DNA of 64,000 nucleotides from Escherichia coli (GTDB lineage Bacteria > Pseudomonadota > Gammaproteobacteria > Enterobacterales > Enterobacteriaceae): NCBI RefSeq assembly GCF_003334815.1, contig NZ_QOWO01000014.1. One strand, written 5' to 3'. Below the pieces are notes generated by a model. The model saw only the letters and a list, made by a program, of their open reading frames with translations, was not told the origin of the DNA and made no database searches. Each line of letters opens with the position of its first letter. Position 1 is the first letter of the stretch. Positions 45,741-52,799 of the stretch are shown here, one piece after another. The position numbers and the translations under genes are program-made.

Positions 45741-46388
45741 TTACTCTTCAATTCGTAACCCATAGGTTTTGAATTTCTCCAGCACTACGGCAATCTCTTC
45801 ATCGCTCAGCACTGGCACCGGGTCCGTAATCGCCAGGGTCGTCAGGTAAAGTTGCGCCAGCACTTCAACTTCATGCGCCAGCCATAACGCTTTTTCCAGA
45901 TTCACCTCACAAGCGATAAGCCCATGATGTTGTAACAAAGTTGCCTTACGATTTTTGAGAGCCAGCGCAACATGTTCAGAAAGTTCGCGTGTTCCAAAGG
46001 TCGCATAAGGCGCGCAAGGAATAGAATTACCGCCAGCCGCCGCAATCATGTAGTGAATAGCGGGGATCGATCGGTTAAGAATGGAAACTGCCGTGCAATG
46101 AACGGCATGATTGTGAACAACCGCGTTGGCATCCGGTCTGCTTTGATAGGCTGCCATATGGAAACGCCATTCGCTTGAGGGGAGCTTTCCTTCCTCATGT
46201 TTACCGTTGCCATCAATAAAGACAATATGCGACTCCGTCAGTTTTTCATATGGAATGCCTGTAGGCGTAATCAGCATCCCATCCTGATAACGTACACTGA
46301 CGTTCCCCGCTGTCCCCTGGTTCAGTCCCAGGCGGGTCATTTCCAGGCAAGTGTCAATAATCTGACGAGCAAGTTTATTTCGTTCCAT
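45741..46388 (-). CDS. fucA: L-fuculose-phosphate aldolase (class II), 215 aa
   Basis: Full-length ORF MERNKLARQIIDTCLEMTRLGLNQGTAGNVS... Confidence 0.96.
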   Translation of the reverse strand: MERNKLARQIIDTCLEMTRLGLNQGTAGNVSVRYQDGMLITPTGIPYEKLTESHIVFIDGNGKHEEGKLPSSEWRFHMAAYQSRPDANAVVHNHAVHCTAVSILNRSIPAIHYMIAAAGGNSIPCAPYATFGTRELSEHVALALKNRKATLLQHHGLIACEVNLEKALWLAHEVEVLAQLYLTTLAITDPVPVLSDEEIAVVLEKFKTYGLRIEE

Positions 46389-46770
46389 TAGCTACCTCTC
46401 TCTGATTCAAAACAGGGCAATAATGTTGTTCCTTTCACACTATTGAATTAGCCGTTTAATTACCCACCATCTTCTTCCTGATTAACAAGAAAGAAATTCA
46501 CAAGCTTATATTTTGTGACCTGGTTCAACTAATCACAGTAAATAACTGCAAGTTCTCTTTTTATAACCCCATTAAAAATGACCGCTCTTAAAAATATTTA
46601 TCAAAACGGTCATTTTTCTATTCCTCCAAGCCCGGAATGACCGTTTTCGGCACAAACAATTAATACGGTCATCTGATTTGTGTTTTTTATGATTTATTTT
46701 CTGAAACGGGCATGAAATTTCGATTATTAAAGTGATGGTAGTCACATAAAGTCACCTTCTAGCTAATAAG

Positions 46771-46786
46771 TGTGACCGCCGTCATA
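46771..46786. promoter_or_regulatory. Candidate CRP site upstream of fucP
   Basis: TGTGAccgccgTCATA: one mismatch to the TGTGA-N6-TCACA consensus, about 150 bp upstream of the fucP ATG. Confidence 0.35.
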
Positions 46787-46934
46787 TTACAGAGCGTTTT
46801 TTATTTGAAAATGAATCCATGAGTTCATTTCAGACAGGCAAATATTCACTGATATGAAGCCCGAACTCGCTGGTTTTGCACTTTTGAAAACATAACCGAT
46901 TACGTGCTTAAGCTTCTGAACCTAAGAGGATGCT

Positions 46935-48251
46935 ATGGGAAACACATCAATACAAACGCAGAGTTACCGTGCGGTAGATAAAGATGCAGGGCAAAGCAGA
47001 AGTTACATTATTCCATTCGCGCTGCTGTGCTCACTGTTTTTTCTTTGGGCGGTAGCCAATAACCTTAACGACATTTTATTACCTCAATTCCAGCAGGCTT
47101 TTACGCTGACAAATTTCCAGGCTGGCCTGATCCAATCGGCCTTTTACTTTGGTTATTTCATTATCCCAATCCCTGCTGGGATATTGATGAAAAAACTCAG
47201 TTATAAAGCAGGGATTATTACCGGGTTATTTTTATATGCCTTGGGTGCTGCATTATTCTGGCCCGCCGCAGAAATAATGAACTACACCTTATTTTTAGTT
47301 GGCCTATTTATTATTGCAGCCGGATTAGGTTGTCTGGAAACTGCCGCAAACCCTTTTGTTACGGTATTAGGGCCGGAAAGTAGTGGTCACTTCCGCTTAA
47401 ATCTTGCGCAAACATTTAACTCGTTTGGCGCAATTATCGCGGTTGTCTTTGGGCAAAGTCTTATTTTGTCTAACGTGCCACATCAATCGCAAGACGTTCT
47501 CGATAAAATGTCTCCAGAGCAATTGAGTGCGTATAAACACAGCCTGGTATTATCGGTACAGACACCTTATATGATCATCGTGGCTATCGTGTTACTGGTC
47601 GCCCTGCTGATCATGCTGACGAAATTCCCGGCATTGCAGAGTGATAATCACAGTGACGCCAAACAAGGATCGTTCTCCGCATCGCTTTCTCGCCTGGCGC
47701 GTATTCGCCACTGGCGCTGGGCGGTATTAGCGCAATTCTGCTATGTCGGCGCACAAACGGCCTGCTGGAGCTATTTGATTCGCTACGCTGTAGAAGAAAT
47801 TCCAGGTATGACTGCAGGCTTTGCCGCTAACTATTTAACCGGAACCATGGTGTGCTTCTTTATTGGTCGTTTCACCGGTACCTGGCTCATCAGTCGCTTC
47901 GCACCACACAAAGTCCTGGCCGCCTACGCATTAATCGCTATGGCACTGTGCCTGATCTCAGCCTTCGCTGGCGGTCATGTGGGCTTAATAGCCCTGACTT
48001 TATGCAGCGCCTTTATGTCGATTCAGTACCCAACAATCTTCTCGCTGGGCATTAAGAATCTCGGCCAGGACACCAAATATGGTTCGTCCTTCATCGTTAT
48101 GACCATTATTGGCGGCGGTATTGTCACTCCGGTCATGGGTTTTGTCAGTGACGCGGCGGGCAACATCCCCACTGCTGAACTGATCCCCGCACTCTGCTTC
48201 GCGGTCATCTTTATCTTTGCCCGTTTCCGTTCTCAAACGGCAACTAACTGA
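46935..48251 (+). CDS. fucP: L-fucose:H+ symporter (MFS), 438 aa
   Basis: Full-length ORF MGNTSIQTQSYRAVDKDAGQSRSYIIPFALL... Confidence 0.96.
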   Translation: MGNTSIQTQSYRAVDKDAGQSRSYIIPFALLCSLFFLWAVANNLNDILLPQFQQAFTLTNFQAGLIQSAFYFGYFIIPIPAGILMKKLSYKAGIITGLFLYALGAALFWPAAEIMNYTLFLVGLFIIAAGLGCLETAANPFVTVLGPESSGHFRLNLAQTFNSFGAIIAVVFGQSLILSNVPHQSQDVLDKMSPEQLSAYKHSLVLSVQTPYMIIVAIVLLVALLIMLTKFPALQSDNHSDAKQGSFSASLSRLARIRHWRWAVLAQFCYVGAQTACWSYLIRYAVEEIPGMTAGFAANYLTGTMVCFFIGRFTGTWLISRFAPHKVLAAYALIAMALCLISAFAGGHVGLIALTLCSAFMSIQYPTIFSLGIKNLGQDTKYGSSFIVMTIIGGGIVTPVMGFVSDAAGNIPTAELIPALCFAVIFIFARFRSQTATN

Positions 48252-52067: not shown

Positions 52068-52799
52068 ATGAAAGCGGCACGCCAGCAAGCGATAGTCGAC
52101 CTGCTGCTGAACCATACCAGCCTGACCACGGAAGCTCTCTCTGAACAGCTAAAGGTCAGTAAAGAAACCATTCGTCGCGATCTCAATGAATTACAGACGC
52201 AGGGTAAAATTCTGCGCAATCATGGACGCGCTAAATATATCCACCGTCAAAATCAAGACAGTGGCGATCCCTTTCACATCAGGCTGAAAAGCCATTATGC
52301 GCATAAAGCAGATATCGCGCGCGAGGCGCTCGCGTGGATTGAAGAAGGGATGGTGATAGCCTTAGACGCCAGTTCAACTTGCTGGTATCTGGCACGCCAG
52401 TTGCCTGACATCAACATTCAGGTCTTCACCAATAGCCATCCGATTTGCCATGAACTCGGTAAACGCGAACGCATTCAACTGATCAGTTCCGGCGGCACAC
52501 TTGAGCGCAAATATGGCTGTTACGTCAATCCCTCGCTGATTTCCCAACTTAAATCGCTGGAAATCGATCTGTTTATTTTTTCTTGTGAAGGGATCGATAG
52601 CAGCGGCGCACTGTGGGACTCCAATGCGATCAACGCTGATTACAAATCGATGCTATTAAAACGTGCCGCGCAATCGTTGTTATTGATTGATAAAAGTAAA
52701 TTTAATCGTTCAGGGGAAGCCCGCATCGGGCATCTGGATGAGGTAACGCACATTATTTCTGATGAGCGCCAGGTTGCAACTTCTTTGGTAACAGCCTGA
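52068..52799 (+). CDS. fucR: DeoR-family activator of the fucose regulon, 243 aa
   Basis: ORF trimmed to ATG 52068 (MKAARQQAIVDLLLNHTSLTTEAL...); N-terminal HTH. Confidence 0.93.
   Translation: MKAARQQAIVDLLLNHTSLTTEALSEQLKVSKETIRRDLNELQTQGKILRNHGRAKYIHRQNQDSGDPFHIRLKSHYAHKADIAREALAWIEEGMVIALDASSTCWYLARQLPDINIQVFTNSHPICHELGKRERIQLISSGGTLERKYGCYVNPSLISQLKSLEIDLFIFSCEGIDSSGALWDSNAINADYKSMLLKRAAQSLLLIDKSKFNRSGEARIGHLDEVTHIISDERQVATSLVTA

What the first reader, a model, noticed from the sequence alone, without database searches (positions are those of the whole stretch)
46574..46672. Paired ATGACCG / CGGTCAT inverted repeats in the fucAO-fucPIKUR divergent control region
The 546-bp intergenic region contains two inverted-repeat pairs built on the same half-site: AAAAATGACCG...CGGTCATTTTT (46574-46617) and ATGACCG...CGGTCAT (46637-46672). 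A related palindrome TGACCGCCGTCA at 46773-46784 overlaps the candidate CRP site. Repeated half-sites with fixed spacing are typical operators for a DeoR-family regulator such as FucR, but I am not certain of the published FucR site.
Basis: inference. Interest (0 to 1): 0.3.

Follow-up and report, generated by a model that had tools for sequence, protein, structure and literature searches.

The report
FucR operator half-sites, fuc control region
The repeated ATGACCG/CGGTCAT boxes between the E. coli fucose genes fucA and fucP are binding sites of the fucose activator FucR, which is already published; the only addition here is that they sit in rigidly spaced inverted pairs conserved across enteric bacteria.

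Summary
The four exact 7-mers lie at the stated coordinates. No shuffle of the window gave more than 2 copies within 100 bp.

The half-site equals the published FucR DAP-seq motif (..AAACGG[T/G]CAT..). Two of the four copies are the operators OFucR3 (46577-46591) and OFucR2 (46636-46650), validated by mutagenesis in Zhang et al. 2024 (PMC11011485). The "related palindrome" at 46773-46784 is not a FucR site. It is the validated CRP site OCrp0.

Comparing 43 other Enterobacterales species adds three points:
- There are five canonical boxes, plus one conserved variant box (X).
- Spacing within pairs is fixed: box1-box2 29/30 bp, box3-box4 29 bp, box4-box5 41/42 bp. The box2-box3 linker varies from 23 to 52 bp.
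- Pair A sits at a fixed distance from the fucAO CRP site. Pairs B and C sit at a fixed distance from the fucPIK CRP sites. This suggests two promoter-specific modules.

One published result argues against obligate pairing. A truncation that keeps box1 but removes box2 retains about 70% of induced PfucAO activity.

Verdict: already known, with a modest architectural refinement. Interest is low.

The parts
46577..46591 (-). Box 1 = published FucR operator OFucR3 (TTAAGAGCGGTCATT on the fucA strand). Left arm of pair A.
   Evidence: The sequence is identical to the published site, whose mutation cost more than 50-fold of induction. The core TGNCCG is invariant apart from the central base in 29 taxa. 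Its centre is 58.5-59.5 bp from the OCrp2 centre in 40 of 44 regions.
46600..46614 (+). Box 2 (ATCAAAACGGTCATT), right arm of pair A. It is the best match to the motif in the window and is not named in the text of the papers I could read.
   Evidence: PWM score 20.7 of a maximum 21.3. Core column identity is 0.92. It lies 29 or 30 bp from box 1 in all 40 regions where both boxes are found. The published V6 truncation removes it with little extra loss of activity.
46636..46650 (-). Box 3 = published FucR operator OFucR2 (CCGAAAACGGTCATT on the fucA strand). Left arm of pair B.
   Evidence: The sequence is identical to the published site, which is a DAP-seq site and whose mutation cost 30% of induction. 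It is conserved.
46659..46673 (+). Box 4 (ATTAATACGGTCATC), right arm of pair B.
   Evidence: It lies 29 bp from box 3 in 40 of 41 regions. Core identity is 0.91. It lies outside the minimal PfucAO fragment V5 (-270 = 46658), which keeps full activity.
46679..46687 (.). Element X (TGTGTTTTT; TGTGGnTTT in most taxa), a conserved variant box in the register of a left arm for box 5.
   Evidence: Column identity is 0.91. It is 12 bp from box 4 and 29-30 bp from box 5 in all taxa. In Photorhabdus the same position holds a canonical ATGACCG. Its function is unknown.
46700..46714 (+). Box 5 (TCTGAAACGGGCATG), a degenerate copy in E. coli that reads CAAACGGTCAT in most other taxa.
   Evidence: It lies 41/42 bp from box 4 and 28.5 bp from the centre of the distal fucP CRP site in 40 of 41 regions.
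46511..46532 (-). CRP site OCrp2, essential for PfucAO.
   Evidence: The published sequence ttagtTGAaccaggTCACAaaa maps here. TGTGA is invariant in the alignment.
46421..46442 (-). CRP site OCrp3, in the fucA 5' leader.
   Evidence: The published sequence maps here.
46728..46749 (.). Distal CRP site of the fucPIK promoter (probably the published OCrp1): AAGTGATGGTAGTCACAT.
   Evidence: GTGA..TCACA is invariant. It lies on the fucA side of the IS5 target, as stated for OCrp1. The assignment of the name is my inference.
46768..46789 (.). CRP site OCrp0.
   Evidence: The published sequence taaTaTGAcggcggTCACActt is the reverse complement of this stretch, and mutating it abolished activity of the IS5 fusion promoter. 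The conservation pattern is that of a CRP site.
46759..46762 (.). CTAG target of the IS5 insertions that activate fucAO.
   Evidence: Positions -374 to -371 from the fucA start codon.
52068..52799 (+). fucR, the DeoR-family L-fucose operon activator that reads the boxes.
   Evidence: NCBIfam NF007720, 508 bits against a cut-off of 259, full length.
45741..46388 (-). fucA. The published transcription start is at window 46451 (-63).
46935..48251 (+). fucP.

Best explanation
The repeats are operator half-sites of FucR, the DeoR-family activator that depends on fuculose-1-phosphate and is encoded about 5 kb downstream in the same window.

Each half-site is an asymmetric box of about 13 bp, aAAA-CGG-[T/G]-CA-Tt. 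The fucA-fucP control region holds five canonical boxes and one conserved variant (X). They form three inverted pairs, each with 29 bp between half-site centres:
- Pair A is box1/box2.
- Pair B is box3/box4.
- Pair C is X/box5.

Pair A sits at a fixed 59 bp from CRP site OCrp2 and serves PfucAO. Pairs B and C sit at fixed distances from the two fucPIK CRP sites and presumably serve PfucPIK. The two modules are joined by a linker of variable length.

When fucose is metabolised, FucR bound to fuculose-1-phosphate occupies the boxes. Together with CRP-cAMP it switches on both divergent promoters, neither of which has a consensus sigma-70 promoter of its own.

Shown by published experiment: the motif, and the requirement for boxes 1 and 3. 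Shown here: the number of boxes, their conservation and their spacing rules. Inferred: that each 29-bp pair is bound by one FucR oligomer across an AT-rich spacer that is probably bent; the assignment of modules to promoters; and any role for boxes 2, 4, 5 and X.

My confidence is about 0.95 that these are FucR half-sites and about 0.6 that the 29-bp pairs are functional units.
For: - Motif identity: boxes 1 and 3 are the published OFucR3 and OFucR2. The consensus I derived from 29 taxa x 5 boxes reproduces the DAP-seq consensus quoted in PMC11011485.
- Published mutagenesis: OFucR3 lost more than 50-fold and OFucR2 lost 30% of fucose induction.
- fucR is present in the window.
- Clustering is far beyond chance.
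- PWM hits occur at 8.4 per kb in 44 orthologous intergenic regions, against 0.42 per kb in flanking coding DNA and 0.12 per kb in shuffles.
- Box cores have column identity 0.90-0.95, against 0.59 for the surrounding DNA.
- Spacing: box1-box2 is 29 bp in 29 regions and 30 bp in 11. Box3-box4 is 29 bp in 40 and 30 bp in 1. Box4-box5 is 41 bp in 30, 42 bp in 10 and 40 bp in 1. OCrp2-box1 is 58.5 or 59.5 bp. Box5 to the distal CRP site is 28.5 bp in 40. Box2-box3 takes 13 different values between 23 and 52 bp.
- Fragment V5, which lacks boxes 4 and 5 and X, gives full PfucAO activity. This fits the idea that those boxes belong to the fucPIK module.
- A 2025 paper refers to four known FucR sites, all on the fucA side of the IS5 target.
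- No consensus promoter is present in the region.
Against: - Truncation V6 (-206 = window 46594) keeps box 1 but removes boxes 2 and 3, and still gives about 70% of induced activity. That equals the box-3 point mutant. Box 2 is therefore not needed for PfucAO at full induction, so pair A is not an obligate unit in that assay.
- No direct footprint or EMSA for any box was found in the papers available to me.
- Box X lacks the CCG trinucleotide that is invariant in every other box.
- A 29-bp centre-to-centre distance is much longer than in the compact DeoR and GlpR palindromes (from my own knowledge). No structure of a close FucR relative exists to judge the protein's reach.
- No experimental data on PfucPIK were available.
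Confidence: 0.75

Rival explanations
1. The boxes are FucR sites, but each is bound independently. The inverted orientation and the fixed spacings would then reflect other constraints, such as helical phasing relative to CRP and RNA polymerase, or nucleoid-protein binding, rather than one FucR oligomer bridging two arms.
For: The published authors treat the boxes as single 15-bp sites. The V6 truncation, with box 1 alone, keeps about 70% of activity. The DAP-seq motif is a single asymmetric box.
Against: The spacer length within pairs is held at 29 (30) bp across taxa as distant as Yersinia, although the spacer sequence is not conserved. The inter-pair linker varies freely from 23 to 52 bp. 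Independent sites would not need a fixed partner distance and a strictly alternating orientation.
Confidence: 0.2
2. The inverted repeats are selected as a nucleic-acid structure: a DNA cruciform in this supercoiling-sensitive AT-rich region, or an RNA hairpin.
For: The single strand of pair A folds better than shuffles (z = -5.8). The region has been described as a stress-induced duplex destabilisation zone (PMC5493358).
Against: The degenerate central base does not covary between arms. It is complementary in only 14-15 of 29 taxa. Pair B does not fold better than shuffles (z = -1.1). The boxes lie upstream of both transcription starts, so they are not in either mRNA (the fucP start is inferred from the CRP position). 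The asymmetric flanks (AAAA on the 5' side, TT on the 3' side) are conserved as in a protein motif.
Confidence: 0.02
3. The boxes bind another regulator (CRP, SrsR or an unknown factor) rather than FucR.
For: The region carries four CRP sites and a proposed SrsR site. Element X is conserved but does not fit the FucR core.
Against: The box consensus CGG-N-CA is not TGTGA-N6-TCACA. It matches the in-vitro FucR motif, and mutating the boxes removes fucose induction specifically while leaving basal, CRP-dependent activity unchanged. SrsR was shown not to regulate fucAO.
Confidence: 0.03

Closest known systems
E. coli FucR operators OFucR2/OFucR3 (OR2/OR3) and putative OR0/OR1 (Zhang et al. 2024 IJMS, PMC11011485; Zhang et al. 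2025 NAR, PMC11894529; motif from Baumgart et al. 2021 DAP-seq)
   Same: Same locus and same sequences. Box 3 is OFucR2 and box 1 is OFucR3. The motif ..AAACGG[T/G]CAT.. is the same. Activation together with CRP is the same.
   Different: The papers describe single 15-bp sites and do not mention inverted repeats or palindromes. The text does not give the sequences of OR0 and OR1. It therefore remains open whether box 2, which lies between OR3 and OR2, box 4 or box 5 are among the 'four known' sites. The 29-bp pairing, the fifth box, element X and the conservation across genera are not described there.
Multi-operator control regions of other DeoR-family regulators (E. coli DeoR, GlpR, UlaR, AgaR), from my own knowledge
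   Same: A sugar-phosphate-sensing DeoR-family protein, several operators in one control region, an oligomeric regulator, and frequent co-regulation by CRP. FucR scores against the GlpR, AgaR, SrlR, UlaR and DeoR family models.
   Different: Those proteins are repressors released by the effector. FucR is an activator that needs its effector to bind. Their operators are compact palindromes (about 16-20 bp, with half-sites about one helical turn apart), whereas here the half-site centres are 29 bp apart.
Divergent CRP-coactivated sugar promoters built as nucleoprotein arrays (for example malEp-malKp with MalT and CRP), from my own knowledge
   Same: Two divergent activator-dependent promoters, several asymmetric activator boxes in both orientations interspersed with CRP sites, and strict spacing.
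   Different: A different activator family. No evidence here for the alternative-register mechanism described for MalT.

Membership tests
FucR operator of the E. coli fuc regulon | Matches the in-vitro FucR binding motif (..AAACGG[T/G]CAT.., with CGG and CA most conserved) | tested here: met
   All four exact copies and box 5 fit the consensus quoted in PMC11011485. PWM scores are 13.3-20.7 of a maximum 21.3. The independently derived phylogenetic consensus is the same.
FucR operator of the E. coli fuc regulon | Lies in the control region of FucR-dependent operons, with fucR present | tested here: met
   fucA/fucP intergenic region. fucR lies at 52068-52799, NF007720, 508 bits.
FucR operator of the E. 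coli fuc regulon | Mutating the site removes fucose- and FucR-dependent induction | not testable with these tools
   Published for box 1 (more than 50-fold) and box 3 (30%). Boxes 2, 4 and 5 and X have not been individually tested. Truncation data suggest boxes 2, 4 and 5 are dispensable for PfucAO at full induction.
FucR operator of the E. coli fuc regulon | Conserved in orthologous fuc control regions | tested here: met
   Among 43 other Enterobacterales species, box-core column identity in the 29-sequence alignment (window included) is 0.90-0.95, against 0.59 for the background. Positions are fixed relative to the CRP sites.
FucR operator of the E. coli fuc regulon | Direct physical binding by purified FucR (footprint or EMSA) | not testable with these tools
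   Only a DAP-seq peak for OFucR2 is reported second-hand. The Baumgart paper is not in the library.
Compact DeoR/GlpR-type palindromic operator | Two inverted half-sites about one helical turn apart (16-20 bp palindrome) | tested here: not met
   The half-sites are inverted, but their centres are 29 bp apart with a non-conserved 22-bp spacer. A single box is not palindromic in its core. The definition of the family feature rests on my own knowledge.
   TGTGAC and TCATATT have column identity 0.97-1.00, and the inner five bases 0.59-0.86. It equals the published and mutationally validated OCrp0.
Structured nucleic-acid element (hairpin or cruciform) | Compensatory changes keep the arms complementary | tested here: not met
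   The variable central base is complementary between partner arms in only 14-15 of 29 taxa.

The most novel reading that the evidence does not exclude
FucR may recognise an unusually long-spaced inverted operator, TGNCCG-N22-CGGNCA, with 29 bp between half-site centres. Three such operators would be arranged in two promoter-specific modules whose internal geometry has been frozen from Escherichia to Yersinia. One arm (X) would be a conserved non-canonical variant. This would imply that a FucR oligomer spans or wraps about 35-40 bp per operator. That mode is not described for FucR and is atypical for the DeoR family.
Probability: 0.5. Interest if true: 0.4.

Novelty: already known. Interest (0 to 1): 0.2.

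Why it matters
The main point, that these boxes are FucR operators, is textbook-level confirmation and adds nothing new.

The refinement could help groups dissecting the fuc switch, which is used as a model for IS5-mediated activation and for propanediol and fucose use in the gut. It tells them that there are at least five boxes, not two to four. It tells them which boxes probably belong to which promoter. It also says that spacing, not only sequence, is under selection. These points give concrete, cheap mutagenesis and footprinting experiments, and a usable search pattern for FucR regulons in Enterobacterales.

Tried and rejected
- The 12-nt perfect inverted repeat AAAACGGTCATT/AATGACCGTTTT between boxes 2 and 3 looked like the best palindrome. 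I rejected it as a unit because the box2-box3 distance varies from 23 to 52 bp among taxa.
- I rejected TGACCGCCGTCA as a third FucR element. It is the CRP site OCrp0.
- I rejected a hairpin or cruciform reading because the arms do not covary.
- I rejected a dispersed repeat or mobile-element remnant. The region occurs once per E. coli genome, and the pair pattern occurs nowhere else in the window.
- Isolated strong motif matches elsewhere in the window (13809, 59264 and others) lie inside long ORFs where I checked and have no partner at 29 bp. I treated them as chance.
- Three papers could not be read: Zhang 2010 and Baumgart 2021. I therefore could not establish the coordinates of the 'putative OR0/OR1' sites.
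- A search of solved structures for FucR relatives found nothing.
- In one search my CRP-centre formula was off by one. The correct distance from box 5 to the distal CRP site is 28.5 bp.

Full report
**Observation**

Window 46389-46934 is the 546-bp region between fucA (minus strand, 45741-46388) and fucP (plus strand, 46935-48251) of E. coli. It is 100% identical to K-12-like strains and is present once in 5025 of 5426 complete E. coli genomes.

The 7-mer is only mildly over-represented in the 64-kb window (16 copies against 8.6 expected). Four copies within 95 bp is far beyond chance, however. The largest cluster in 1000 shuffles of the window was 2, and none of 20000 shuffles of the intergenic region had three or more copies. 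The composite pattern TGNCCG-N22/23-CGGNCA occurs twice in the window, both times here, against 0.14 expected. A fifth, degenerate copy (AAACGGGCAT, 46704-46713) also appears in the repeat search.

**What is already published**

Zhang et al. 2024 (PMC11011485) quote the FucR binding motif obtained by DAP-seq (Baumgart et al. 2021) as ...AAACGG[T/G]CAT.., with CGG and CA most conserved. They name two sites. OFucR2 is CCGAAAACGGTCATT, the reverse complement of window 46636-46650 (my box 3). OFucR3 is TTAAGAGCGGTCATT, the reverse complement of 46577-46591 (my box 1). Mutating OFucR3 reduced fucose induction of PfucAO more than 50-fold, and mutating OFucR2 reduced it by about 30%. Neither mutation changed basal activity.

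The same paper maps several other features:
- the fucA transcription start at -63 (window 46451);
- CRP site OCrp2 (46511-46532), which is essential;
- CRP site OCrp3 (46421-46442).

[quoted passage not shown] It also speaks of 'all four known binding sites' lying on the fucA side of the IS5 target CTAG (window 46759-46762). The text gives no sequences for these sites. Neither paper mentions inverted repeats or palindromes.

fucR itself lies at 52068-52799 in the window and is a full-length match to the NCBIfam equivalog 'L-fucose operon activator', DeoR family.

**The third element**

TGACCGCCGTCA (46773-46784) lies inside taaTaTGAcggcggTCACActt (reverse complement of 46768-46789). This is the CRP site OCrp0, whose mutation abolished the activity of the IS5-created fusion promoter. 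In a 29-taxon alignment the positions TGTGAC and TCATATT are invariant or nearly so, while the inner CGCCG has column identity of only 0.59-0.86. In genuine FucR boxes the CCG is invariant. The resemblance to the FucR half-site is therefore incidental.

**Comparative analysis (new here)**

A scan of one genome per species with FucP returned 43 Enterobacterales loci: Escherichia, Salmonella, Citrobacter, Klebsiella, Raoultella, Kluyvera, Enterobacter, Kosakonia, Yokenella, Buttiauxella, Hafnia, Rahnella, Photorhabdus, Yersinia and others. All have fucA divergent from fucP.

A MAFFT alignment of the 29 closer regions shows five sharp phylogenetic footprints on a poorly conserved background. Box cores (TGNCCG / CGGNCA) have mean column identity 0.90-0.95, against 0.59 for the rest of 46560-46725. 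The consensus from 29 taxa x 5 boxes is aAAA-CGG-[T/G]-CA-Tt, the same as the DAP-seq consensus. With this matrix, hits occur at 8.4 per kb in the real intergenic regions, 0.42 per kb in flanking coding DNA and 0.12 per kb in shuffles.

The exactness of the four copies in this window is partly a lineage accident. The central base is free (T, G or A), and other E. coli lineages already have ATGCCCG at box 3.

**Spacing rules (44 regions)**

| Interval | Distance between centres | Count |
|---|---|---|
| box1(->) to box2(<-) | 29 bp / 30 bp | 29 / 11 |
| box3(->) to box4(<-) | 29 bp / 30 bp | 40 / 1 |
| box4 to box5(<-) | 41 bp / 42 bp / 40 bp | 30 / 10 / 1 |
| box5 to distal fucP CRP site centre | 28.5 bp | 40 of 41 |
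| distal CRP to OCrp0 | 39-40 bp | all 44 |
| OCrp2 to box1 | 58.5 or 59.5 bp | all 40 found |
| box2 to box3 | 23-52 bp | 13 different values |

The prettier 12-nt perfect palindrome between boxes 2 and 3 is not.

The region falls into two rigid modules joined by a flexible linker:
- [OCrp2 - 59 - box1 - 29 - box2], next to PfucAO;
- [box3 - 29 - box4 - 12 - X - 29 - box5 - 28.5 - CRP - 40 - OCrp0], next to PfucPIK.

X (46679-46687; TGTGTTTTT in E. coli, TGTGGnTTT in most taxa) is as conserved as the boxes (0.91). It sits in the exact register of a left arm for box 5. In Photorhabdus the same position holds a canonical ATGACCG. Elsewhere X lacks the CCG core, so its role is open.

**Mechanism**

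The best-supported reading is that FucR bound to fuculose-1-phosphate occupies these asymmetric boxes and, with CRP-cAMP, turns on two divergent promoters. Neither promoter has a consensus sigma-70 promoter of its own.

Some parts are published: box 1 is critical and box 3 auxiliary for PfucAO, and FucR action depends on CRP at OCrp2. Other parts are my inference from the frozen spacing with unconserved, AT-rich spacers:
- that each 29-bp inverted pair is contacted by one FucR oligomer;
- that pair A serves PfucAO;
- that pairs B and C serve PfucPIK.

The module assignment fits the finding that fragment V5 (-270 = window 46658), which lacks boxes 4 and 5 and X, has full PfucAO activity.

One published result cuts against obligate pairing. 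Truncation V6 (-206 = window 46594) retains box 1 but removes box 2 as well as box 3. It still gives about 70% of induced activity, no worse than the box-3 point mutant. Box 2 is therefore dispensable for PfucAO under full induction with abundant FucR. Its conservation may reflect cooperativity at low FucR or inducer levels, or a role at the other promoter, but this is untested.

**Rivals**

- Independent single sites remain possible (about 0.2).
- A hairpin or cruciform is unlikely. The free central base does not covary between arms (complementary in 14-15 of 29 taxa). Pair B folds no better than shuffles. The boxes also lie upstream of both transcription starts.
- Another regulator is unlikely, given the match to the in-vitro FucR motif and the fucose-specific mutant phenotype.

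**Comparison and novelty**

These are members of the known set of FucR operators. The features that could be tested here (motif, location, conservation) are met. The two that cannot be tested here (mutational effect, direct binding) are established in the literature only for boxes 1 and 3.

They do not fit the compact palindrome typical of DeoR and GlpR operators, because the half-site centres are 29 bp apart. That comparison rests on my own knowledge of those systems.

The finding as stated is already known. The five-plus-one box count, the 29-bp pairing, the two-module layout and the conservation across genera were not found in the papers I could read, and they amount to a modest refinement. 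I could not read Baumgart 2021 or Zhang 2010, or consult EcoCyc or RegPrecise, so some of this may be annotated elsewhere.

Noticed in passing
window 46679-46687: Element X: TGTGTTTTT in E. coli and TGTGG[G/C/T]TTT in most Enterobacterales. It is as conserved as the FucR boxes, always 12 bp from box 4 and 29-30 bp from box 5. It lacks the CCG core, and in Photorhabdus a canonical ATGACCG takes its place. It may be a variant FucR half-site or a site for another factor.
   Followed up: partly
window 46806-46830: A nearly invariant block, GAAAATGA-ATYCATGAGTTCAT, that includes the inverted repeat AAATGAA/TTCATTT (46809-46815 / 46824-46830). It lies around and just downstream of the likely fucP -10 and transcription start and is conserved across the 29 aligned taxa. 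It may be the proposed SrsR site or a leader element.
   Followed up: no
L047 (E. coli EC25, NZ_CM169476.1); insertion at window 46868-46876: A human-gut isolate carries an IS1A element in the fucP 5' leader. The insert is 777 bp including a 9-bp target duplication, CGCTGGTTT. It lies outside the FucR boxes and at a different place from the laboratory IS5 insertions at 46759-46762.
   Followed up: partly
window 46479-46503: Zhang et al. 2024 place the PfucAO -35 element 'TTGtgA' at -96 to -91 from the fucA start codon. In the window those positions read TAATCA on the fucA strand, and TTGTGA lies at -115 to -110 (46498-46503). All other published sites map exactly. I could not reconcile the -35 coordinates.
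   Followed up: partly
window 13809, 59264 (also 12018, 29572, 51331): Isolated strong matches to the FucR box matrix (18.0 and 17.2 bits). They lie inside long ORFs where I checked (13809 and 59264), and none has a partner box at 29 bp. They are probably chance matches.
   Followed up: partly
L022, L026 (Mangrovibacter), L037 (Rahnella), L036 (Photorhabdus): These taxa depart from the common architecture. Mangrovibacter has only three detectable boxes, with a 19-bp box2-box3 distance. Rahnella lacks a detectable box 5. Photorhabdus lacks pair A at the expected distance from OCrp2.
   Followed up: no
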